Assembly: GCA_918797485.1 (NCBI GenBank) | Contig: CAKKNE010000001.1 | Location: 5,332,001 to 5,396,000 of the forward strand | Length of the DNA: 64,000 nt | Direction of reading: 5' to 3' | DNA from: Pelagomonas calceolata | Taxonomy: Eukaryota | In this document: positions 3,544 through 55,209 of the stretch, one piece after another | How the letters are laid out: every line of letters begins with the position of its first letter | How positions within the stretch are numbered: position 1 is the stretch's first letter | Program-made: the position numbers and the translations under genes | Notes under the pieces: model-generated | What the model saw: only the letters and a program-made list of their open reading frames with translations | The model's database searches: none | What the model was told of the DNA's origin: nothing

Positions 3544-4968
3544 ATGCGCGCCACAGCATGGCTCATAGTCGCTTTGTGTGCCCTCGGCGCGCTTGCCGAC
3601 GAGCCCAAGAAGAAGAAGAATGCTAAACCGAAGAAGGAAAAGAAAGACGCCAAGAAGGAGCAAAAACAAAAGGACTGCCCGGCGTGCCCCGCGGACCTCT
3701 CGGATGAATTAGCAGCAGCCACGGCACGCGCCGAGAAGGCCGAGGCGAAGACCTGCCCCGAGGATTTGAGTGAGGCGCTCGCCGCCGCCGAGACGCGCGC
3801 CTCCATAGCCGAGGAGAAGGCCGTGGAATTGCAGAAGAACGTCGACGACGAGATCGCCAAGGTCGTCGAGGCGAAAAAAGACGCCAAGCACTGGAAGGCC
3901 CAGGTCGACGGCCTCGAGGAGGCCCTCCAATCGACGAAGGCGGCCCTCGCCACGTCCCATGCCGAGCCCGTCGTGCCTGGGGTATCTATCTCAAATGATG
4001 GTACCGTGGCGTTCAACGCCACGGATGGACTCATAGCGGCCCAGAACGGCGCCGGGGCCGCGCTGGCCATGGCCGGCGAGGCCGCGAAGACGGGCTACCA
4101 GGCGCTCGTCGACGCCATTCCGACAGAGGAGGCCAAGAAGCTCGGCGAGGATGCGGTGGATGCGATGTACGGTGCCGTCGACAAGGGCAAGGCCAAGACG
4201 GCGGAAGCGTATGGTAATGCCTGGGGCTACGCCGTGGCCAATGAATATGTTGCGCCGGCGACGCAGTCTCAGGTCGAAGAGAAAGTATCCGTCGCGTACA
4301 GCAAGGCCGCCTCGATCACTTCGGATGTGTGCTACGACAAGATTCCTTCATTATATGAAAAGCACGCGAAAAAATACGTCGACGCCGCTTTGATTGAAAT
4401 CGGCGAGCGGAAGGCGCTGGCCACGGTCGAATTAAGGGAGCTCTTTGCCCACGCCCAGCAGGCCTTGCATGATCGCGTCCAGCAGCTGAAGGAGAAGCTG
4501 CCGACGTCGGCGGATCTGAAGAGTAGGGCGGACTCGGCGCGGGAAGTGGTGGCCCTCCGCTTCCACGCCTTGTTAGTGGCCGCGGGCGCCTGCGACGAGA
4601 CGAGCGATGTGCCGTGCGCGCCGGCGAAGCGCCTCGCGTCCGCGTGCGTCGCCTGCTGGGCGGTGGCCGCGTGCGTTTTACTATTAATCGCGGCCTACCA
4701 TTTGGTGGGGATGTTATTGGGTCTGGCGAAGAAATTGGTCGTCGCCGTGGGCAAGCGCGCCGTGCGCCTGCCGCTCATGCTGATTAAGCTGGCCATCGCG
4801 TTGGTGGTCCTCGCGGTGTCGCTTGCTCTCAAACTCGCGCTGCTGCCCCTCCGCATCGTGCTGCTGCCCGTGACGCTGCCGCTCGCCTTGCTCGCGCGGA
4901 AGAAGGGGCCCGCGAAGGCGTCGGCGCGGCCGCCGCGCAAGAATTCTCCTGCCCGCGGGCGGCGCTAG
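3544..4968 (+). CDS. Secretory-pathway coiled-coil membrane protein of unknown function
   Basis: MRATAWLIVALCALGALA signal peptide, Lys/Glu/Ala-rich coiled coil, C-terminal hydrophobic helices. Confidence 0.7.
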   Translation: MRATAWLIVALCALGALADEPKKKKNAKPKKEKKDAKKEQKQKDCPACPADLSDELAAATARAEKAEAKTCPEDLSEALAAAETRASIAEEKAVELQKNVDDEIAKVVEAKKDAKHWKAQVDGLEEALQSTKAALATSHAEPVVPGVSISNDGTVAFNATDGLIAAQNGAGAALAMAGEAAKTGYQALVDAIPTEEAKKLGEDAVDAMYGAVDKGKAKTAEAYGNAWGYAVANEYVAPATQSQVEEKVSVAYSKAASITSDVCYDKIPSLYEKHAKKYVDAALIEIGERKALATVELRELFAHAQQALHDRVQQLKEKLPTSADLKSRADSAREVVALRFHALLVAAGACDETSDVPCAPAKRLASACVACWAVAACVLLLIAAYHLVGMLLGLAKKLVVAVGKRAVRLPLMLIKLAIALVVLAVSLALKLALLPLRIVLLPVTLPLALLARKKGPAKASARPPRKNSPARGRR

Positions 4969-45002: not shown

Positions 45003-45863
45003 ATGGAGTACGGTGCCATAGATGAGCTGCCGGGCGAGGACGCGCCGCGACAGGCGAAACGGTACGCGGTGGGAGTTGTCACAGCTACCGCCCTGGTCGC
45101 CCTCGGTGCGACGTCCGCCATCCGGACGACGACGTCGCTGCGCGCCACGGCGCAGAACCCGACGGGACGGAGGGTCCAGGTCCACGCGTTCGCGGACGCC
45201 TTGTGACCCGACTGCCGCCGGCACGCGATGTCGCTGCACGACGTGATGTTGAGCAACGACGACCTGCTGGCGGCGATCGACCTGACGGTGGACTTCCACG
45301 GGAACGAAGCCTCGGTCGAGGAGCACGGGATGGTGCTGCTGGACGTGAACCGGAATCACCTCTGCGTCCAGCACGAGGCGGACCTGGACCAGACGGAGTG
45401 GTGGCCCACGGCGCACTGCATGTTCGGGTTGCAGGCCTGCCTGGATAATGATGGGTCGACCACTTGTGATCAAGCGGAGAGTGGTTCGGAGGACGACCTC
45501 ACTTTGAGTGGAGGCGAGACGGACCTCGCGAATTGCGACTGCTCGCTCGACGGCGTCACGTCCTACTGCCTCTCGAAATACACTTCGGTGGAGTGGTCCT
45601 CGCTGGACAAGACCTGCGACGTGTCGCGGCTCGCGAAGAAGTCGTCGGGCCGCGCGGCCCAGGCCGACGACGGGGCCACGCTCTGGGTCACCATCGACGG
45701 CATCAAATACACTTATGCCGAGGGCGCGGCCTACGGCGGCACGAACACGGAGGAAGGGTTCGGGGCTTGGGCCGCTCGAGTGATGGGCGTCGTGTGCCAG
45801 TCTGTGCAAAACGCGGGCCAGGCCGTGCCCGAATCGTGCGCGGGCTACTTCCCCCCGCACTAG
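45003..45863 (+). CDS. Putative GILT-like thioredoxin-fold selenoprotein (Sec TGA at 45204-45206, UxxC)
   Basis: One frame spans ORFs 44910-45206 and 45228-45863: MEYGAI…TM…VQVHAFADAL-U-PDC…WVTIDG; SECIS-like hairpin 16 nt after TAG. Confidence 0.85.
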
Positions 45864-46064: not shown

Positions 46065-46299
46065 AAAGCGCCGAGCGCTTTTGCGAGCGCCTTTTTGCCG
46101 CGATCCCTGGACCAGTTGCAGCCGCGACTAGACCAGAGGCGCAGTCCTTGTGTATTTTCGACGCCTGCGACGTCAGCGCCATCATCGGTGCTCGACACGC
46201 CAATTGCTCACTGACCGCGTTTAGAGAAACTCGCGGGTAACTCGCCGGACACCGCGCCGTCTGCATATAGAACTTGCCGTCGCCGTGCCGCTGTACGCC

Positions 46300-47160
46300 A
46301 TGCATCACCTCCTGGCAGTGCTGAGCCTCGCGACCGCGCTCGTCGCGCCGACGCGGCGCCAGACAACTCGCCTCCGCGCCGCGTCGCTCGAGAAGAAGGG
46401 CGACGATTATATTTTTGAGGACATCGCGAAGAACTTGGGAAAAGGAGACCAGGACCGCCTGTACCAGTACCAACTGGAGCTCGCCGAGCGCTACGGCGAG
46501 GACAAGATCGGTCGCGCGGCGCCGCCGCCGAAGCCCAAGAAACCGAAGCAGGGGGGCACCGTAGTCGTCGAGGCCGTGACGACGACGCCGAGGACGAAGG
46601 CCGTCGTCGCACCGCGCAACTCCAAACTCCGCTGGCGAGGCCTCGTGTGCGGCGCCGCGGTGGCGTTGTTTTTGACGCCTGGGTTTTTGGAGTACTTGAT
46701 CAGCGTCCGGACGAAGGCGCTCGCCCTCGAGAAGTCGCTCGAGGCGCTCTTATTAGCAGTGGCGGCGCCGGCGACGGACGCGCTCTCCGCTGCGTGCGGC
46801 GCCGCCGCGCCCATCTGCGCATCGGCCTACGGCTCCGTCGCCGCCACCGCGGCCGGTGCGTATGGTGCGGCCGCGCCCGCCTGCGCCAAGGCTTGTAGTA
46901 GCGTCGGCGCGGCGGCGTCGTCGGCCTGCGGCGGCATCTCGGCGGCGGCCGGATCGGCCTCCGCCTCTCTTGCACCGCTCGCGGCCAAGGTTGGCTCGGC
47001 CGTGGGTTCAGCGTACAGTAGCGTCTCCGCGACCAAGGTCGGCGCTGCGGTGACGAGCGGCGTCGCCAAGGCGAGTGCGCGGGTCGGACCGCCCCTGGCC
47101 CGCGTCTGGAGTTTCTTGGTCAATTGGAAGGGATTGATCTTCTGGCGACCTGGAAATTAA
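46300..47160 (+). CDS. Ala-rich membrane protein, possibly plastid-targeted
   Basis: MHHLLAVLSLATA/LVAP signal plus transit-like segment; one TM; Ala/Ser/Gly repeats. Confidence 0.6.
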   Translation: MHHLLAVLSLATALVAPTRRQTTRLRAASLEKKGDDYIFEDIAKNLGKGDQDRLYQYQLELAERYGEDKIGRAAPPPKPKKPKQGGTVVVEAVTTTPRTKAVVAPRNSKLRWRGLVCGAAVALFLTPGFLEYLISVRTKALALEKSLEALLLAVAAPATDALSAACGAAAPICASAYGSVAATAAGAYGAAAPACAKACSSVGAAASSACGGISAAAGSASASLAPLAAKVGSAVGSAYSSVSATKVGAAVTSGVAKASARVGPPLARVWSFLVNWKGLIFWRPGN

Positions 47161-47306
47161 TGTTATTTAGTTGTATTTAATCACCAACGAGTCATGTTGC
47201 GACCCGTACCAGGAGATTGCTGTGCTTTTGGCACTCCGTTGCTATTCACAGCATTTGTAGAACAGTGAAGCACTGCCATTGCGAAAAAAGCTGCTGCGCT
47301 GTTCAC

Positions 47307-50051
47307 ATGTCCTCACACATCTTGCTGTTCCTCACGCTTGCGGCGCCAGGTGCATCACCCGCGTCACACAGCTCACAATTTGCTTTCGCAGCGCACGCGT
47401 CGTCATTCGTGGCGGGCGCGCGTCGTCGTGGCGCCGCGACATACGCTCACATACCCCACATGGCGCAATTGCGCCAACGCTCCGGGCGAGCGGAGCACGA
47501 GGTCCCGCGCCGGGACGCTCTCGACGCCGCGACGATGAAACTTCCCGAAAATCAATCATACGCCCGCGCTCGTCGGCGCTCGGTCGAAAGCACATCAACC
47601 GGATCGCGCGCAGGCGTTCAAGGCCACGGCTACATGACCGAGCCGCCCTCGCGCCAGTACGAGGCGTACAAGGCGAACGGTTGGCCGAACCAAGTGGCCG
47701 AGTACGATCCGCATGGCGTCGCTGCCGGAGGCATGTATGCCGACTGCGACGGCTGCCGGTCGCGCGACTGGTTCGGCCCGAACCCGTGGTCGGAGCCCGG
47801 TACGGCGAAGCATTTGGACTTCATTATGGGTGGGACCGGCGGCAACATCCTCGGCGTCTGCGGCGCCTCGCCGTCGCGGGACAACGACTACAACACGCCT
47901 CTGGATGGGCACTGGGGCATGAGCGCCAAGACCACCTACAAAGCCGGCGACGTGATTGACGTATCCTGGTGCGTGTCCGCAGACCACGGTGGCATCCCAC
48001 AGTTCCGCTTATGCGATGACGAAGGCCTCGTGTCAGCTGTGACGACGCCCGACAAGCCGCCGAGCCTCGCGGACCTCGAGGCGCTCGAGCAGTGCTTCCA
48101 ACGCGGTCTTCTGCGGTGCGACGACGTCCCCGGTCAGGACTGCTCCCAGGTCGAGGTCTGCGACACCTACGCTAAAGACTGGGGCGCCTGCTCCGATCCC
48201 GGCCAATTCCTGCACTGCCGGGACGAGAAATCGACCGAGGGCAAGTACTGGGCGTGCGTCAACACGCAGGAGACGTGCGACCACGGGTTCATGGCCCGCT
48301 ACAAGCTCAAGATCCCCGAGTCCTTCCCGGCCTCGCAGCACACCATTCTCTCGTACCGGTGGGACACGTACGAGAACAACGAGGTCTTCGTCGGGTGCGC
48401 CGACGTCGCGATCACGCCGGACGGCGACGCGGCGCCCGTGACGCCTAGGCCGACGCCGCGGCCCACGAAGGGCGACGTCGCCACGCCCAAGCCGACGCCG
48501 CGCCCGACGATCAAAGACGAGGTGCCCGCCACGCCCCGCCCGACCTCCAAGCCGACGGCCGCCTCCGGTGGTGAAGACGACGACGCCGACGCCTACTGCT
48601 GCCAGAACGACGGCAAGTCGTGTGACGGGTGCTCGTGGATCGCGCCGCCAGGCAACTACTGCGCCCAGAGCGAGAGCAACTGCGGTAACTGCGGCGAGCA
48701 GTTCGCCTGGTGCGGCGATGGTGCCGTGACGGACGACGAGCCCGCGCCGGCGACGCCCCGGCCGACCGTCAAGCCCACGGCCGCGGCGCCTCAGACGCCC
48801 CGGCCGACGCCCAGACCCCAAGCCAACAACGATGACGGCTCGTCTGGCGGCGAGGGCTACTGCTGCTTCTGGCCCGAGGGCCCCGGTGGCTGCGGCCAGT
48901 GCACGTCGCCGGCGGGCCCCGAGAACTGGTGCGCCAAGGGCCGCAAGGAGCAGTGTCTCGTGCATCGCGTCGATGGCGTGTATCGCGTGAACCTTATATT
49001 CCACACAGGCAAAGAGTGCGTCGAGGACTGCGGCCACACGTGGTGCGACGGCGGCTCGCCCGTGACCGACGACGGCGACACTGATGACCGTGCGACGTGC
49101 GACCTTCCCGAGGCCGGCGCGCCGGTGGACGCCAGTGGCTTCGTAGAGAAGCACGGCAAGCTCCGCCTCGACGGCGTCCAGCTCGTCGATGAAAACGGCG
49201 CCCCGGTGCAGCTCCTGGGCATGTCGAGTCACGGCCTCCACTGGTTCCCCGACTGCTACACCTTCGAGGCGGTCGAACACCTGGTCAAAACCTGGGGCAC
49301 TACTGTTTTCCGGGCGGCGATGTACGTCGGCGAGGGCGGCTACGCGTCGGACCCGTCGGTCAAGCAGAAGGTCAAGGACATCGTCGCGTGGACGAAGCAG
49401 CTCGGCATCTACTGCATCATCGACTGGCACGTCCTCACGCCGGGCGACCCCAACGCTAACACCTACTCGGGCGCCGTCGACTTCTGGACCGAGATGGCGA
49501 CGCTCTACAAGGACGAAGACCACGTTATCTACGAGATCGCGAACGAGCCGAACGGCGTGGCCTGGTCTCGCGTGAAAGAGTACCACAATCGTATTATTGG
49601 GGCGATCCGAGCCATCGACGCGGAATCGATCATCATCGCGGGCACGACGACGTGGTCCCAGGACATTCATCTCGCTGCGGACGAGCCAGTCGCCGAGTCG
49701 TACAACGTCATGTACGCGTTCCACTTCTACGCCTGTTCCCACGGCTCGCTGCTGCAGCGCGTCAAGGACTACCGAACGAAGATACCTATCTTCGTCTCAG
49801 AGTGGGGCACGTCGTCGTATAGCGGCGACGGAGGGGTGTGCGCGTGTGAGGCCAAGGAGTTCCTCGACGTGTTCTCGGACAAGGACGGCTCGGGCGGCGG
49901 CATCAAGCTGTCGATGGCGCAGTGGTCCTGGGCCGACAAGAGCGAGTCCTCCGCCGCGCTCGCGCCGGGCGCGTGCCGCAGCGACTGGGACTCGCTCTCG
50001 GAGTCGGGCGAGTTCCTTCGGGCCTACGTCCGCGACGCGACGCGTGCCTGA
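47307..50051 (+). CDS. Secreted AA13-like LPMO - PT linker - 2x Cys-rich module - GH5 endoglucanase fusion; introns 47350-47613 (GT-AG) and 48943-49008 (GC-AG)
   Basis: Spliced 18-aa signal MSSHILLFLTLAAPGVQG then His1 HGYMTEPPSR; WCVSADHGG; EVFVGCADVAI; GH5 GMSSHGLHW, IIDWH, IANEP, FHFY, VSEWG. Confidence 0.85.
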   Translation: MSSHILLFLTLAAPGASPASHSSQFAFAAHASSFVAGARRRGAATYAHIPHMAQLRQRSGRAEHEVPRRDALDAATMKLPENQSYARARRRSVESTSTGSRAGVQGHGYMTEPPSRQYEAYKANGWPNQVAEYDPHGVAAGGMYADCDGCRSRDWFGPNPWSEPGTAKHLDFIMGGTGGNILGVCGASPSRDNDYNTPLDGHWGMSAKTTYKAGDVIDVSWCVSADHGGIPQFRLCDDEGLVSAVTTPDKPPSLADLEALEQCFQRGLLRCDDVPGQDCSQVEVCDTYAKDWGACSDPGQFLHCRDEKSTEGKYWACVNTQETCDHGFMARYKLKIPESFPASQHTILSYRWDTYENNEVFVGCADVAITPDGDAAPVTPRPTPRPTKGDVATPKPTPRPTIKDEVPATPRPTSKPTAASGGEDDDADAYCCQNDGKSCDGCSWIAPPGNYCAQSESNCGNCGEQFAWCGDGAVTDDEPAPATPRPTVKPTAAAPQTPRPTPRPQANNDDGSSGGEGYCCFWPEGPGGCGQCTSPAGPENWCAKGRKEQCLVHRVDGVYRVNLIFHTGKECVEDCGHTWCDGGSPVTDDGDTDDRATCDLPEAGAPVDASGFVEKHGKLRLDGVQLVDENGAPVQLLGMSSHGLHWFPDCYTFEAVEHLVKTWGTTVFRAAMYVGEGGYASDPSVKQKVKDIVAWTKQLGIYCIIDWHVLTPGDPNANTYSGAVDFWTEMATLYKDEDHVIYEIANEPNGVAWSRVKEYHNRIIGAIRAIDAESIIIAGTTTWSQDIHLAADEPVAESYNVMYAFHFYACSHGSLLQRVKDYRTKIPIFVSEWGTSSYSGDGGVCACEAKEFLDVFSDKDGSGGGIKLSMAQWSWADKSESSAALAPGACRSDWDSLSESGEFLRAYVRDATRA
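48951..49008 (+). mobile_element. Short introner element in the LPMO-GH5 gene
   Basis: TSD GCAAGGAG (48943-48950) / GCAAAGAG (49009-49016); ends CAGTGT…TTCCACACAG; core CGCGTCGATGGCGTG. Confidence 0.8.
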
Positions 50052-50221
50052 AACGGCGCGTGACCGCTTCCTCTTCTCCCGGTCCCTCCTCTTCCCTTCC
50101 CGCGTGTTCCTCTTCCCCAAGTCATGATGTTGTGTCAGCGCTTGCGCTGTCCTGTCTATGTCTCTTCTACGTAAAAACGCTTTTCTCACGATGCGTTCGA
50201 GGAGTGAGTGAGGGGCATTAT

Positions 50222-53085: not shown

Positions 53086-55209
53086 TCACGCGCCGCTCGG
53101 CCCCATCGTGCGGAGCTTGACGTCCTCGGGCGTCTTGTCGAGGATGTCGTGCGCGTACTTGAGGAGCATCTTGTCGAGCTTGGCCTCGGGGTCGAAGAAG
53201 GGATTGATCTGGCCCGGTTTCATACCAGCAGCTAAATGGTTGACGTCGCGGTGGTTCGCCTCATCGGCGCGGATCGCGAGCATCAGGTCGAGCACGGTAC
53301 CCTCCTCGCCTGCGTGAACCGGTGAGTGGCGTGAGAAAGGTCTACCATCATCGTGGACGCCGGATCCGAACCCAGGTGCCAGTAGGCCCGCCCGATGGCC
53401 GGCGCGATCTGCGTGCGCCACGCGGCCAATTCACTCCCTTCCGGCGCCGCCTCGATGCCGCCGATGATCTTCGTGTACGTGCTACAGGCCTCTTCTTCCA
53501 CGTAGCCGACCAGGCGGTGGCAGTACGTCGGGTTGATGACGTACATCGTCCCGAAGAACGTCGCGAAGACGCACTGGCCGCCGATGACCGCGAGCCGGAA
53601 CATCGTGCCCGGCTGGTACATCTTGATGAACGCTAACAAGTGCATCTTCTCGTTCTCCGCCTGTGCATAAATCAAAATTTCAAGGCGCGTTCCACGCCAT
53701 CGAGCACCCGACGCACTGGTAGATTTCCACACAGCTCTCGACCTCCTCCAACAACAAGTTCGTCCAGCCGCCGTCGCGCTCCATGGTCCTCAAAGCCTTG
53801 AAGTGGCGGAACATGGCCCCCACAAACCCGGGCACGGCAGCGATCGTCTCCAGGAAGATCGCCCTTAACATAATCTTCTTCTGCGTGAGCTCGCCGATGT
53901 TCCAGAGCGTGGCCGCGTCGAAGCCCTTGCGCAATAACCTGCGTGGAAATCAACCAGTGAGTTGGTATGTCGAACGGTGAGGAACCGGCATCGCCACGCC
54001 ATTGAGCAAAGTGTCGCGTCGATGGCGTGGAGGTCGTCGCGACGATTCAGCACGAAGGCGCCGTGAAATCTTGATTTCCACACAGGTAGTAACCAGGTCG
54101 AGTAGTAGGCCGCCTTGTCCGTCGTCGTCTTCGGTGGAGTATGCGTCAATTTCACATCTAGTTCCTCGGGCGAGTAGACGGAGTGGCCGCCGGCCTGTGT
54201 GGAAATCAACCAGTGCGTTGGGTGCGGTTCACTAAGTCATTTCTCGGCGATGACACGCCCGTGCTGGCTCCGTCGAGCGGTGAGGGACCGGCACTGCCAC
54301 GCCATCGAGCAGGCATCACGTCGATGGCGTGGAAGTCATGATTCAGCCGGTGGGCGGAAGGCGCTGGAAGTACTACGAAATTTTGATTTCCACACAGCCG
54401 CCCGCGAGGTACTCGACGCTACATTTGCCCACACCGAGCGGGTGCTTCGTGCCCGTGGTCCTACGTGGTCGACGACGTCGCGTCGATGTCGTGGGGGTCG
54501 GACGACGGCGTCGCGTCGATGGCGTGGGTTCGGACGACGGCGTCGCGTCGATGGCGTGGGGTTCGGACTCGGACGGCGCGTCGATGGCGTGGGGTTCGGA
54601 CTCGGACGGCGCGCTTGAAGTGGTTGCCCATATCCAATCCAACCTCGCCCTCGTCGCCGAGCTTGACGTCCAAGGCATGAATGAAGCGGTCGTAGGACAC
54701 GCTACCGCCGGCCTTGGCCGCGTAGAACCTGAGCGGAAATCAAACTTCGGGCGCCCCACGCCATCGACGCGACGTTGTCCCAAGGACCGCGTCGTCTACC
54801 TAACTCACTGGTTGATTTCCACACAGCGTAGAACATCTCGCCCAAATCTTCCACTTCTTTGTCGGTGAACGTGCCGCGGTGCTTCTTTAGTAAAGCTCTA
54901 AGCTCCTCGGCGTCGAGGCGGCCGTCGCCGTTCTTGTCGGCGGCCATGAGCTCGGACCTGCGCGGTGTGGCGCGTCGGCGGGCGTAACGCTGTGGAAAAG
55001 TCTGACGCGGCGGCGCGCTTGATCACGCGGACCTGCTGCTCGCCTAAAAACTTGAGAGTGTGCGGTCCATCGCTGTCCGTAACCGTCACGCGGGGCGAGG
55101 TCGACGGGTCGATGGGCTGAGCCGGCGCCGACAGGCATCTTAGAGGCGCGCGGCGCACGATTGGTTGGGTGGCCCTGGCAGTTGCACGAGCAATGTGGGC
55201 GAGACGCAT
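53086..55209 (-). CDS. AOX: Mitochondrial alternative oxidase with N-terminal EF-hand; 8 exons (55209-55019, 54957-54835, 54728-54615, 54460-54406, 54194-54094, 53938-53743, 53660-53372, 53309-53086), 430 aa
   Basis: Splicing gives one 1293-nt frame with DKNGDGRLDAEE, FLETIAAVPG, LLEEAENEKMHL, GYVEEEA, IRADEANHRDVNH. Confidence 0.92.
53661..53734 (-). mobile_element. Introner element (AOX intron 6, 53661-53742)
   Basis: TIRs CTGTGTGGAAATC / GATTTATGCACAG; decayed TSD GTCGAGAG / GCGGAGAA. Confidence 0.8.
53939..54085 (-). mobile_element. Introner element (AOX intron 5, 53939-54093)
   Basis: TIRs CTGTGTGGAAATCAA / TTGATTTCCACGCAG; TSD GTTACTAC / GTTATTGC. Confidence 0.88.
54195..54397 (-). 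mobile_element. Introner element (AOX intron 4, 54195-54405, GC-AG)
   Basis: Perfect 15-bp TIR CTGTGTGGAAATCAA; TSD GCGGGCGG / GCCGGCGG. Confidence 0.92.
54461..54614. repeat. AOX intron 3 made of ~4 tandem copies of the introner core motif
   Basis: CGCGTCGATG(G/T)CGTGGG(G)(T)TCGGAC… repeated with ~32-33-bp period. Confidence 0.85.
54729..54826 (-). mobile_element. Introner element (AOX intron 2, 54729-54834)
   Basis: Perfect TSD GTTCTACG (54827-54834 and 54721-54728); TIRs CTGTGTGGAAATCAA / TTGATTTCCGCTCAG. Confidence 0.92.

What the first reader, a model, noticed from the sequence alone, without database searches (positions are those of the whole stretch)
47307..50051. AA13-like LPMO with an E-x-F active site fused to a GH5 cellulase in an alga
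Seen: removing a 264-nt in-frame intron gives an 18-aa signal peptide ending right before His1 (HGYMTEPPSR, codon 47625-47627), as a histidine-brace LPMO requires. The domain (47625-~48415) reads VCG…DYNTP…WG…Y.AGDVIDVSWCVSADHGG..QFRLCDD..LV….PD..P…..LEQCF..GLL.CDDV.GQDC…KLKIP….S.HTILSYRWDTYENNEVFVGCADVAI. It is followed by PTPRPT linkers, two Cys-rich modules and a complete GH5 domain with both catalytic Glu (NEP, SEWG). Established, from my recall of family motifs: this pattern and Cys spacing match fungal starch-active AA13 (WCVD.NGDHGG.F.YRICQD…HTL.SFKWNSFQTGQIYLSCAD), which has Q-x-Y and usually travels with CBM20; E-x-F is the signature of chitin/C1-cellulose AA10 enzymes; the GH5 motifs resemble the bacterial-type GH5_2 endoglucanases. 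Inference: a non-fungal AA13-related LPMO redirected to beta-glucan or cellulose, acting oxidatively and hydrolytically in one chain, for wall/theca remodelling or mixotrophy. I do not know of this architecture being described.
Basis: partly seen in the sequence, partly recalled or inferred. Interest (0 to 1): 0.88.

Follow-up and report, generated by a model that had tools for sequence, protein, structure and literature searches.

The report
Algal starch-LPMO relative fused to cellulase
A tiny ocean alga transcribes one gene that joins a relative of the fungal starch-cutting copper enzymes (AA13) to a bacterial-type cellulase domain; the protein is predicted to be secreted and likely attacks cellulose-like or chitin-like fibres rather than starch, which would show that this enzyme family is neither fungus-only nor starch-only.

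Summary
Observation confirmed. RNA reads prove both introns (47350-47613 GT-AG; 48943-49008 GC-AG), and one RNA contig carries signal exon, LPMO and GH5 together. The spliced 804-aa protein has His right after an 18-residue signal-like leader. Sequence and fold point to AA13 (AoAA13 E 9e-29; Z 24.6, next AA15 14.5), at about 33% identity and with Glu-x-Phe where AA13 has Gln-x-Tyr. The organism is Pelagomonas calceolata (100% match to a named NCBI protein, whose gene model misses the leader). The domain belongs to a protist radiation: a Glu branch holding the named pelagophytes splits 100/97 from a Gln branch holding fungal AA13, Lithocolla and Triparma. Glu-branch members lack CBM20, carry an unannotated 8-Cys module (18 of 20) and are fused to GH5, GH18 or both. 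Best reading: a secreted oxidative-plus-hydrolytic enzyme for beta-1,4-glucan, not starch (0.6); no activity is shown, and 'redirected from starch' is not established. LPMO-GH5 fusion has a bacterial AA10 precedent, and the Pfam pair sits uncommented in the genome table; ten literature searches found no AA13-like algal enzyme.

The parts
47247..47306 (+). 5' UTR (approximate start)
   Evidence: RNA contig begins at 47247; 5 molecules end at 47270
47307..47349 (+). Exon 1 coding part: residues 1-14 of the predicted signal peptide
   Evidence: hydrophobic core, 7-residue mean up to 3.1
47350..47613 (+). Intron 1, 264 nt, GT-AG, in frame and stop-free; partly retained
   Evidence: 20 junction reads in 4 of 4 runs; spliced in contig of X7, retained in contig of X4
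47614..47624 (+). End of leader (..G-V-Q-G), V at -3 and G at -1 before His1
   Evidence: G at -1 in 19 of 27 and V at -3 in 18 of 27 full-length relatives
47625..48416 (+). AA13-like LPMO catalytic domain, 264 aa, 14 Cys
   Evidence: Pfam LPMO_10 E 1.1e-12; AoAA13 E 9.1e-29; Foldseek E 2e-16, TM 0.68/0.76; Z 24.6, rmsd 2.7 over 223
47625..47627 (+). His1 of the predicted histidine brace
   Evidence: Aligned to His1 of fungal AA13
47985..47987 (+). His121, second brace histidine (SADHGG), equivalent of AoAA13 His91
   Evidence: His91 from PMC5094447 table
48381..48389 (+). Glu253-Val-Phe255 second sphere and axial position (AA13: Gln-x-Tyr224)
48417..48596 (+). Pro/Thr-rich linker (PTPRPT repeats)
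   Evidence: Sequence
48597..48713 (+). 8-Cys module 1, candidate new carbohydrate-binding module
   Evidence: 8 invariant Cys in 13 aligned copies; pLDDT 87; no Pfam, PDB-sequence or fold match
48714..48860 (+). Second Pro/Thr-rich linker
   Evidence: Sequence
48861..49046 (+). 8-Cys module 2, interrupted by intron 2
48943..49008 (+). Intron 2, 66 nt, GC-AG
   Evidence: 22 junction reads in 3 of 4 runs; contigs of 4 of 4 further runs
49140..50048 (+). GH5 domain of the bacterial Cel5A endoglucanase type; catalytic E637 (49545-47) and E722 (49800-02)
   Evidence: Pfam E 2.7e-55; best PDB matches are endoglucanases, E 8e-85 to 8e-80; bacterial relatives up to 49%
50049..50191 (+). Stop codon and 3' UTR; main 3' ends near 50117 and 50170

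Best explanation
The gene encodes one spliced, transcribed 804-aa chain that is predicted to be secreted and likely acts as a two-enzyme tool on insoluble beta-1,4-glucan (cellulose-like fibre) rather than on starch. Shown: gene structure, single transcript, AA13-type sequence and predicted fold, both brace histidines, Glu-x-Phe, an intact GH5, and partners GH5/GH18 but never CBM20 in this branch. Inferred: signal peptidase frees His1; His1 and His121 bind one copper; after reduction the site uses H2O2 or O2, steered by Glu253, to oxidise C1 of a chain on the crystalline surface; the two 8-Cys modules hold the enzyme on the fibre; the GH5 hydrolyses the loosened chains and opens fresh surface, which also protects the LPMO from self-oxidation, as shown for bacterial bicatalytic LPMOs. 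The paralogue with GH18 would do the same on chitin. Least certain is the biological target: I favour foreign particulate glycan (detritus, walls of other plankton) slightly over the alga's own theca.
For: Splicing and one transcript. AA13-type fold well above all other LPMO families (Atlas agrees for a homologue, TM 0.75). His1, His121 and 11 of 14 Cys columns shared with fungal AA13. Fusion with GH5 in Pelagomonas, Aureococcus and an MMETSP transcript that adds GH18; the 4 GH5 domains tested form one clade, 100/100. A 68% paralogue lies in tandem with the same GH18, catalytic DxDxE intact, and the published P. calceolata table lists one LPMO+GH5 and one LPMO+GH18 gene. No CBM20 in 17 of 17 Glu-branch rows scanned. 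No alpha-amylase (PF00128) or glucoamylase (PF00723) in the stored 88% of that table. Gln-to-Glu raised chitin activity in an AA10 and Glu+Phe marks cellulose-active AA10 (PMC11137697). Intramolecular synergy precedents: PMC11705215, PMC10154629.
Against: No activity, copper binding, N-terminus or localisation was measured. The only characterised relatives of this fold oxidise starch. The second sphere does not fix the substrate. The model is moderate (pLDDT 70, pTM 0.74) and worst in residues 22-74, the region that likely shapes the binding face. Most Glu-branch members have no hydrolase (GH5 in 4 of 20 tree rows). GH5 subfamily and substrate were not tested with subfamily HMMs. No Pfam cellulose or chitin synthase was found in the stored part of the table, so an own substrate is unproven, and a roughly 2-micron alga (size recalled) secreting enzyme into open water is ecologically puzzling. 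Intron 1 is sometimes retained. The GH18 paralogue in L078 has two frame shifts in its linker, and some metagenome contigs show internal deletions.
Confidence: 0.6

Rival explanations
1. A true AA13: the LPMO still oxidises starch or another alpha-glucan (from prey or detritus of green algae and dinoflagellates), and the GH5 strips the cellulose wall around it.
For: All characterised members of the closest family are starch-active (PMC7405360, PMC5094447); core fold and Cys pattern are kept; CcLPMO10-Man5 shows the two domains can target different polymers.
Against: No CBM20; Gln-x-Tyr and the adjacent N-x-F motif of AA13 (PMC10782670) are replaced by E-x-F and D-T-Y; about 33% identity; separate branch 100/97; no amylolytic partner in 88% of the table; partners are GH5 and GH18.
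Confidence: 0.15
2. Same chemistry as the best reading, but the substrate is the alga's own theca or matrix glycan, possibly a polymer that is neither cellulose nor chitin, remodelled at cell division.
For: Transcribed in culture RNA of several studies; pelagophytes have organic thecae or walls (PMC6492006), said to contain cellulose and alginate (PMC9133084, a secondary statement); the family is expanded in colonial Chrysophaeum; two GT2-like genes exist.
Against: No PF03552, PF03142 or PF01644 synthase in the stored 88% of the table; theca chemistry was not found in the papers read.
Confidence: 0.2
3. An LPMO-like copper protein without glycosidic-bond cleavage (binding, adhesion, H2O2 supply or copper handling); the GH5 is the only working enzyme.
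For: LPMO-like proteins without proven cleavage exist (X325, AA16-like; seen in fold lists); the branch tolerates Phe, Tyr and Trp at the axial site.
Against: Brace, Glu/Gln and axial aromatic are all kept across 30-60% divergent members, and His1 follows a signal-like leader in 27 of 27 full-length rows examined.
Confidence: 0.07

Closest known systems
Fungal AA13 starch-active LPMOs (AoAA13, PDB 4OPB; AnAA13A/B)
   Same: Fold (Z 24.6, rmsd 2.7 over 223), His brace positions, 14 Cys with 11 columns shared, WCV..DHGG and HT(I/L) motifs, secretion leader.
   Different: 33-34% identity; Glu-x-Phe for Gln-x-Tyr; D-T-Y for N-x-F; lacks the CPEC pair and has its own CxxC at 41/44 in an insertion of about 30 residues; no CBM20; fused to 8-Cys modules and GH5; host is a stramenopile alga. 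Published range: mainly Ascomycota, over 90% fungi.
CcLPMO10-Man5 (Caldibacillus cellulovorans) and JdLPMO10A-CBM5-GH18
   Same: N-terminal LPMO, binding modules and a C-terminal hydrolase in one chain; intramolecular synergy shown there.
   Different: Those are bacterial AA10 domains with CBM3/CBM5 and a GH5 mannanase or GH18; here an AA13-type domain, unknown modules and a Cel5A-type GH5 in a eukaryote.
AA15 LPMOs, including algal AA15-GH18/GH19 fusions (PMC5823890)
   Same: Sister family of AA13 in a profile tree (PMC6950343); Glu two residues before the axial aromatic; algal members fused to chitinases; active on cellulose and chitin.
   Different: Much weaker match (profile E 6e-5 against 1e-43; Z 14.5 against 24.6); no GH5 fusion named in the passages read.
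C1 cellulose-active AA10 (ScAA10C, Arg-Glu-Phe)
   Same: Glu-x-Phe in the last strand.
   Different: Different family (Z 11.7, 17% identity); the Arg position maps to Thr248 by residue offset.
Bacterial Cel5A-type GH5 endoglucanases (6GJF, 1LF1, Bacillus Cel5A; subfamily label GH5_2 recalled)
   Same: Full-length match, both catalytic Glu and the SSHG, RxAMY, IDWH, NEP, FHFY, SEWG and WSW motifs.
   Different: Eukaryotic, fused behind an LPMO; up to 49% identity to bacterial genome hits; donor lineage unresolved.

Membership tests
LPMO superfamily | His at mature position 1 after a signal peptide | tested here: met
   Splicing shown by RNA; hydrophobic leader with V-x-G before His, same pattern in 27 relatives. 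Cleavage itself is predicted; no SignalP or proteomics.
LPMO superfamily | Second brace His and N/Q/E-x-F/Y motif | tested here: met
   His121 and E253-x-F255 align with AoAA13 His91 and Q-x-Y224.
LPMO superfamily | Immunoglobulin-like beta-sandwich fold | tested here: met
   The 22 best VIA matches are LPMOs or LPMO-like proteins; predicted model only.
LPMO superfamily | Copper binding and oxidative cleavage of polysaccharide | not testable with these tools
   Needs expression and assay.
AA13 | Closest sequence and structure match among LPMO families | tested here: met
   E 9e-29 against 0.0045 for the next; profile 1e-43 against 1.5e-5; Z 24.6 against 14.5.
AA13 | Gln-x-Tyr second sphere and axial Tyr | tested here: not met
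   Glu253-x-Phe255; feature from PMC5094447 and PMC10782670.
AA13 | Adjacent N-x-F/Y motif and third conserved His (PMC10782670) | tested here: inconclusive
   Third His present (H239, HTI); N-S-F is D-T-Y here.
AA13 | Falls inside the fungal AA13 clade | tested here: not met
   Fungal rows form their own branch 100/100; the window lies across a 100/97 split (33 rows, unrooted, LG+G4, only 3 fungal rows).
AA13 | CBM20 association (65% of AA13 carry a CBM, PMC8615602; typical, not obligatory) | tested here: not met
   0 of 17 Glu-branch rows scanned; CBM20 only in 3 fungal-type rows.
AA13 | Passes the CAZy/dbCAN AA13 family HMM | not testable with these tools
   No CAZy or dbCAN library on hand; CAZy curators may still file it as AA13.
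AA13 | C1 oxidation of starch; grooved binding face | not testable with these tools
AA15 or AA10 | Best match to these families | tested here: not met
   Far below AA13 in all three comparisons; Pfam LPMO_10 also hits fungal AA13, so it does not mean AA10.
GH5 | Full domain with acid/base Glu (NEP) and nucleophile Glu (SEWG) | tested here: met
GH5_2 endo-beta-1,4-glucanases | Subfamily HMM assignment and activity | tested here: inconclusive
   Best PDB matches are Cel5A-type endoglucanases; subfamily label is recalled, no subfamily HMM available.
Known CBM families | 8-Cys module matches a described CBM | tested here: inconclusive
   No Pfam, PDB-sequence or fold match; a 43-residue model is a weak query and CAZy X modules could not be searched.

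The most novel reading that the evidence does not exclude
AA13 is the fungal, starch-specialised twig of a wider eukaryotic LPMO lineage. Pelagophyte algae expanded a Glu-type sister branch that oxidises cellulose and chitin, pairs it with horizontally acquired GH5 and GH18 hydrolases (up to all three catalytic domains in one chain), and anchors it with a new 8-cysteine carbohydrate-binding module of undescribed fold. One of the ocean's most abundant picoalgae would then be an active oxidative degrader of particulate cellulose and chitin.
Probability: 0.4. Interest if true: 0.87.

Novelty: new variant of a known kind. Interest (0 to 1): 0.71.

Why it matters
AA13 is the only LPMO family known to cut alpha-glucan, with one solved structure and no explanation for its specificity. 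A natural set of the same fold with Gln-Tyr, Glu-Phe, Glu-Tyr and Gln-Trp sites and with cellulase, chitinase or CBM20 partners makes the starch-versus-cellulose question directly testable by comparison. It also supplies a eukaryotic LPMO-endoglucanase (and LPMO-GH5-GH18) fusion and a candidate new binding module, and suggests that bloom-forming and open-ocean pelagophytes process insoluble glycans. The public gene model lacks the leader, which hides His1 from LPMO-mining pipelines.

Tried and rejected
No whole genome was held, so no genome-wide search. Pattern scans with the LPMO alignment found no relative in viral contigs (0 of 48 pattern hits) or in prokaryote genomes (0 of 60); these scans are insensitive. 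BFVD gave 3 unnamed viral models at E<=0.001 with 15% identity, generic LPMO level. The 8-Cys module gave no Pfam hit under E 0.1 in 13 members, no PDB sequence hit under E 1, no Foldseek hit and one VIA row at Z 2.1: absence of a match, not proof of a new fold. Rooting failed: with 6 remote LPMO-like rows the quick tree placed 5 inside the pelagophyte side and 1 on the other, on long branches, so direction of change is unknown. GH5 donor unresolved (top 26 of 65 full-length loci, pattern-biased sample, bootstrap unsettled). A coding role for intron 1 was rejected: it is spliced, 13% of shuffles are also open, and relatives' read-through peptides differ in frame. Separate transcription of the two domains was rejected. 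The Atlas could not read the window's own domain; a Chrysophaeum homologue was used. No complex prediction was run, as no binding claim is made. One review (10.1111/nph.17921) was not held and Table S1 of PMC6950343, which may list non-fungal AA13, was not readable. Earlier scan notes: none by sequence or place; one unrelated AA11-like note by words.
Full report
Gene structure. The + strand holds one open frame from 47181 to 50051. The ATG at 47307, a GT at 47350 and an AG at 47613 give a 264-nt intron whose removal yields an 18-residue leader ending V-Q-G directly before His at 47625. Poly(A) reads of four runs (one sample) show this joint in 20 reads (4 of 4 runs) and a second joint, 48943-49008, 66 nt, GC-AG, in 22 reads (3 of 4 runs); almost all first mates lie on the minus strand, as expected for a plus-strand RNA. 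Contigs from four other studies confirm intron 2 in 4 of 4. One 2604-nt contig runs from 47247 to 50180 with both introns removed, so leader, LPMO and GH5 are one transcript; another contig retains intron 1 (three of these four runs are only guessed to be RNA). The spliced product has 804 residues and is identical to stored protein P0094. Residues 15-804 are 100% identical to CAH0366520.1 of Pelagomonas calceolata, whose model starts inside intron 1 and so lacks the leader. Neighbours are unrelated housekeeping genes: mitochondrial carrier, Snf7, DnaJ/TPR and two frames without a Pfam match (5 scanned).

The first domain. Pfam gives LPMO_10 (E 1.1e-12), a model that also hits fungal AA13. Against PDB sequences AoAA13 scores E 9.1e-29 and the next chain 0.0045; with an 8-sequence profile, 1.4e-43 against 1.5e-5. 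The AlphaFold model (pLDDT 70, pTM 0.74, loops 22-74 poor) matches 4OPB at Foldseek E 2e-16 and Z 24.6, rmsd 2.7 over 223 residues; AA15 follows at Z 14.5 and AA10 at 11.8. Identity to two named fungal AA13 proteins is 33-34%. All three have 14 Cys, 11 of them in shared columns; His1 and His121 match the brace; Glu253-x-Phe255 replaces Gln-x-Tyr. PMC5094447 (passages) gives His1/His91/Tyr224 and the Gln two residues earlier for AA13; PMC10782670 (passages) adds a third His and an adjacent N-x-F/Y motif. Here the third His is present and the motif reads D-T-Y.

The family. Three homologue searches returned 8, 67 and 103 proteins, and the profile search of 1.84 billion representatives 573 at E<=0.001, 46 at 1e-30. 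Named members are pelagophytes (Pelagomonas, Aureococcus, Chrysophaeum, Pelagophyceae sp. CCMP2135), the bolidophyte Triparma, the nucleariid Lithocolla and Aspergillus/Penicillium AA13; most rows carry no name. From 52 extracted domains I dropped 6 short rows, 6 remote rows and 7 near-duplicate, truncated or long-branch rows. In the 33-row tree (LG+G4, unrooted) one branch, 100/97, separates 20 rows that all have Glu (17 E-x-F, 3 E-x-Y; all named pelagophytes kept) from 13 rows with 8 Q-x-Y, 4 Q-x-W and 1 E-x-Y, including fungal AA13 as its own 100/100 group, Lithocolla and Triparma. One dropped Chrysophaeum row has Q-x-W and fell on the pelagophyte side in the larger quick tree, so the Glu rule has an exception. 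The root could not be placed: the Glu type may be older than the fungal starch type, so 'redirected from starch' is one of two orders.

Partner domains. An 8-Cys module rich in aromatic residues occurs in 18 of 20 Glu-side rows and 0 of 13 Gln-side rows. It folds confidently (pLDDT 87) and has no Pfam, PDB-sequence or fold match; by position between Pro/Thr linkers it is a candidate CBM (inference). CBM20 occurs only in 3 fungal-type rows of the 63 proteins scanned, and in none of the 17 Glu-side tree rows scanned. GH5 is fused in Pelagomonas, Aureococcus and a complete 1268-aa MMETSP transcript that also ends in GH18. In metagenome locus L078 a paralogous domain (68%) is followed 850 nt later by the same GH18 type (65% to the MMETSP one, DGIDFDWE intact), though the linker shifts frame twice in that contig. 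The supplement of the P. calceolata genome paper (PMC9481584, file 4, cut at about row 14,640 of 16,667 genes) lists two PF03067 genes, Pca_1p30160 with GH5 and Pca_4p24180 with GH18; that the latter is this paralogue is inferred. The main text has no hit for cellulose, glycoside or monooxygenase. Two Glu-side rows end in CCSxWGWC repeats that I recall as hevein-like; Pfam did not call them.

The GH5. The best solved relatives are Cel5A-type endoglucanases (E 8e-85 to 8e-80), with both catalytic glutamates and surrounding motifs aligned. Bacterial genome hits reach 49%. Four pelagophyte GH5 domains form one clade, 100/100, among 26 bacterial rows, without a resolved sister; this fits one acquisition from bacteria and one fusion, but no eukaryotic GH5 sample was included.

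Substrate. For beta-1,4 glycans: the partners are a cellulase and a chitinase type; Glu with axial Phe marks C1 cellulose-active AA10, and a Gln-to-Glu change raised chitin activity in MaAA10B (PMC11137697, abstract, introduction and start of methods; PMC12186267, passages); the stored part of the species table has no PF00128 or PF00723 gene; stramenopiles do not store starch (recalled). Against over-reading: the same paper shows the second sphere only modulates specificity; the Arg of Arg-Glu-Phe maps to Thr here; chitin-active JdLPMO10A reads N-A-F at this place; the table also lacks Pfam cellulose and chitin synthases, so the alga's own wall is not an evident substrate, although pelagophytes have organic thecae (PMC6492006, PMC9133084, passages). 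Reads on the 3.4-kb stretch were 41, 31, 39 and 11 per million records in the four runs (my arithmetic, including the start of the next gene), and variants appear in a marine metatranscriptome.

What is known. Bicatalytic LPMOs exist: CcLPMO10-Man5 (PMC11705215, abstract), JdLPMO10A-GH18 (PMC10154629, passages) and algal AA15-GH18/GH19 (PMC5823890, passages). AA13 is described as mainly ascomycete (PMC7405360, PMC10782670, passages), over 90% fungal and sister to AA15 (PMC6950343, passages; its Table S1 could not be read and may list non-fungal members), and CBM-rich (PMC8615602, passages); PMC5320794 (passages) adds nothing on algae. Ten full-text searches gave no paper on a pelagophyte or AA13-like algal LPMO; three of them (pelagophyte + LPMO name, Pelagomonas + LPMO, AA13 + Aureococcus) returned 0 papers. 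Subscription journals and the CAZy/JGI databases were not searchable.

Verdict. The protein works, most likely, like a bicatalytic LPMO-hydrolase on beta-1,4-glucan (0.6). It is the closest known kin of AA13 but fails the Gln-x-Tyr, clade and CBM20 tests, so I file it as an AA13-related pelagophyte branch, a new variant of a known kind. Interest 0.71: the architecture has precedent and no activity is shown, but the branch, its partners and the new module make a standing question on LPMO specificity testable.

Noticed in passing
window 47460-47613; P0090: The public NCBI model CAH0366520.1 (841 aa) starts at an ATG inside intron 1 and so has no signal peptide before His1; many metagenome gene calls make the same error.
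   Followed up: yes
window 47350-47613: Intron 1 is partly retained (depth 1-3 inside it in two raw runs; retained in the contig of X4). The retained form is in frame and would put 88 residues into the leader, a possible off switch for His1 exposure.
   Followed up: partly
P0149, P0152, P0212, P0216, P0213: AA13-related proteins of Triparma, one Chrysophaeum paralogue and unnamed sources have Trp at the axial position (Q-x-W), unusual for LPMOs; some carry trefoil domains. A more remote, large set (P0292-P0326) also ends in Q-x-W where inspected, and the Atlas lists haptophyte clusters nearby.
   Followed up: partly
P0147: Lithocolla globosa, a nucleariid relative of fungi, has a single-domain Q-x-Y member without CBM20; could mark the pre-fungal state or come from prey.
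   Followed up: partly
P0004, P0104, P0107: A complete 1268-aa transcript product joins LPMO, GH5 and GH18 in one chain.
   Followed up: partly
L078 3652-6418: Paralogous LPMO followed by GH18, with an intron near 4380-4486 and two frame shifts in the linker (assembly error or decay).
   Followed up: partly
L074 5889/5890, L080, L081, L086, L087, P0232: Several metagenome contigs join the LPMO part directly to the middle or end of the hydrolase (for example window 48513 to 49592 missing in L074): repeat-collapsed assemblies or natural deletion alleles.
   Followed up: partly
P0136, P0199-P0203, P0213, P0341-P0343: Chrysophaeum taylorii has an expanded set (at least 13 named genes seen), some annotated with a DOMON domain, a possible built-in electron donor.
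   Followed up: no
window 45207-45863 and 46225-47160: Two upstream open frames without a Pfam match, conserved in position in L074 and L082 (97% and 80-90%).
   Followed up: partly
window 53244-54236 (minus strand): Fragments that look like an alternative oxidase gene split by short introns (recalled motif resemblance only).
   Followed up: no
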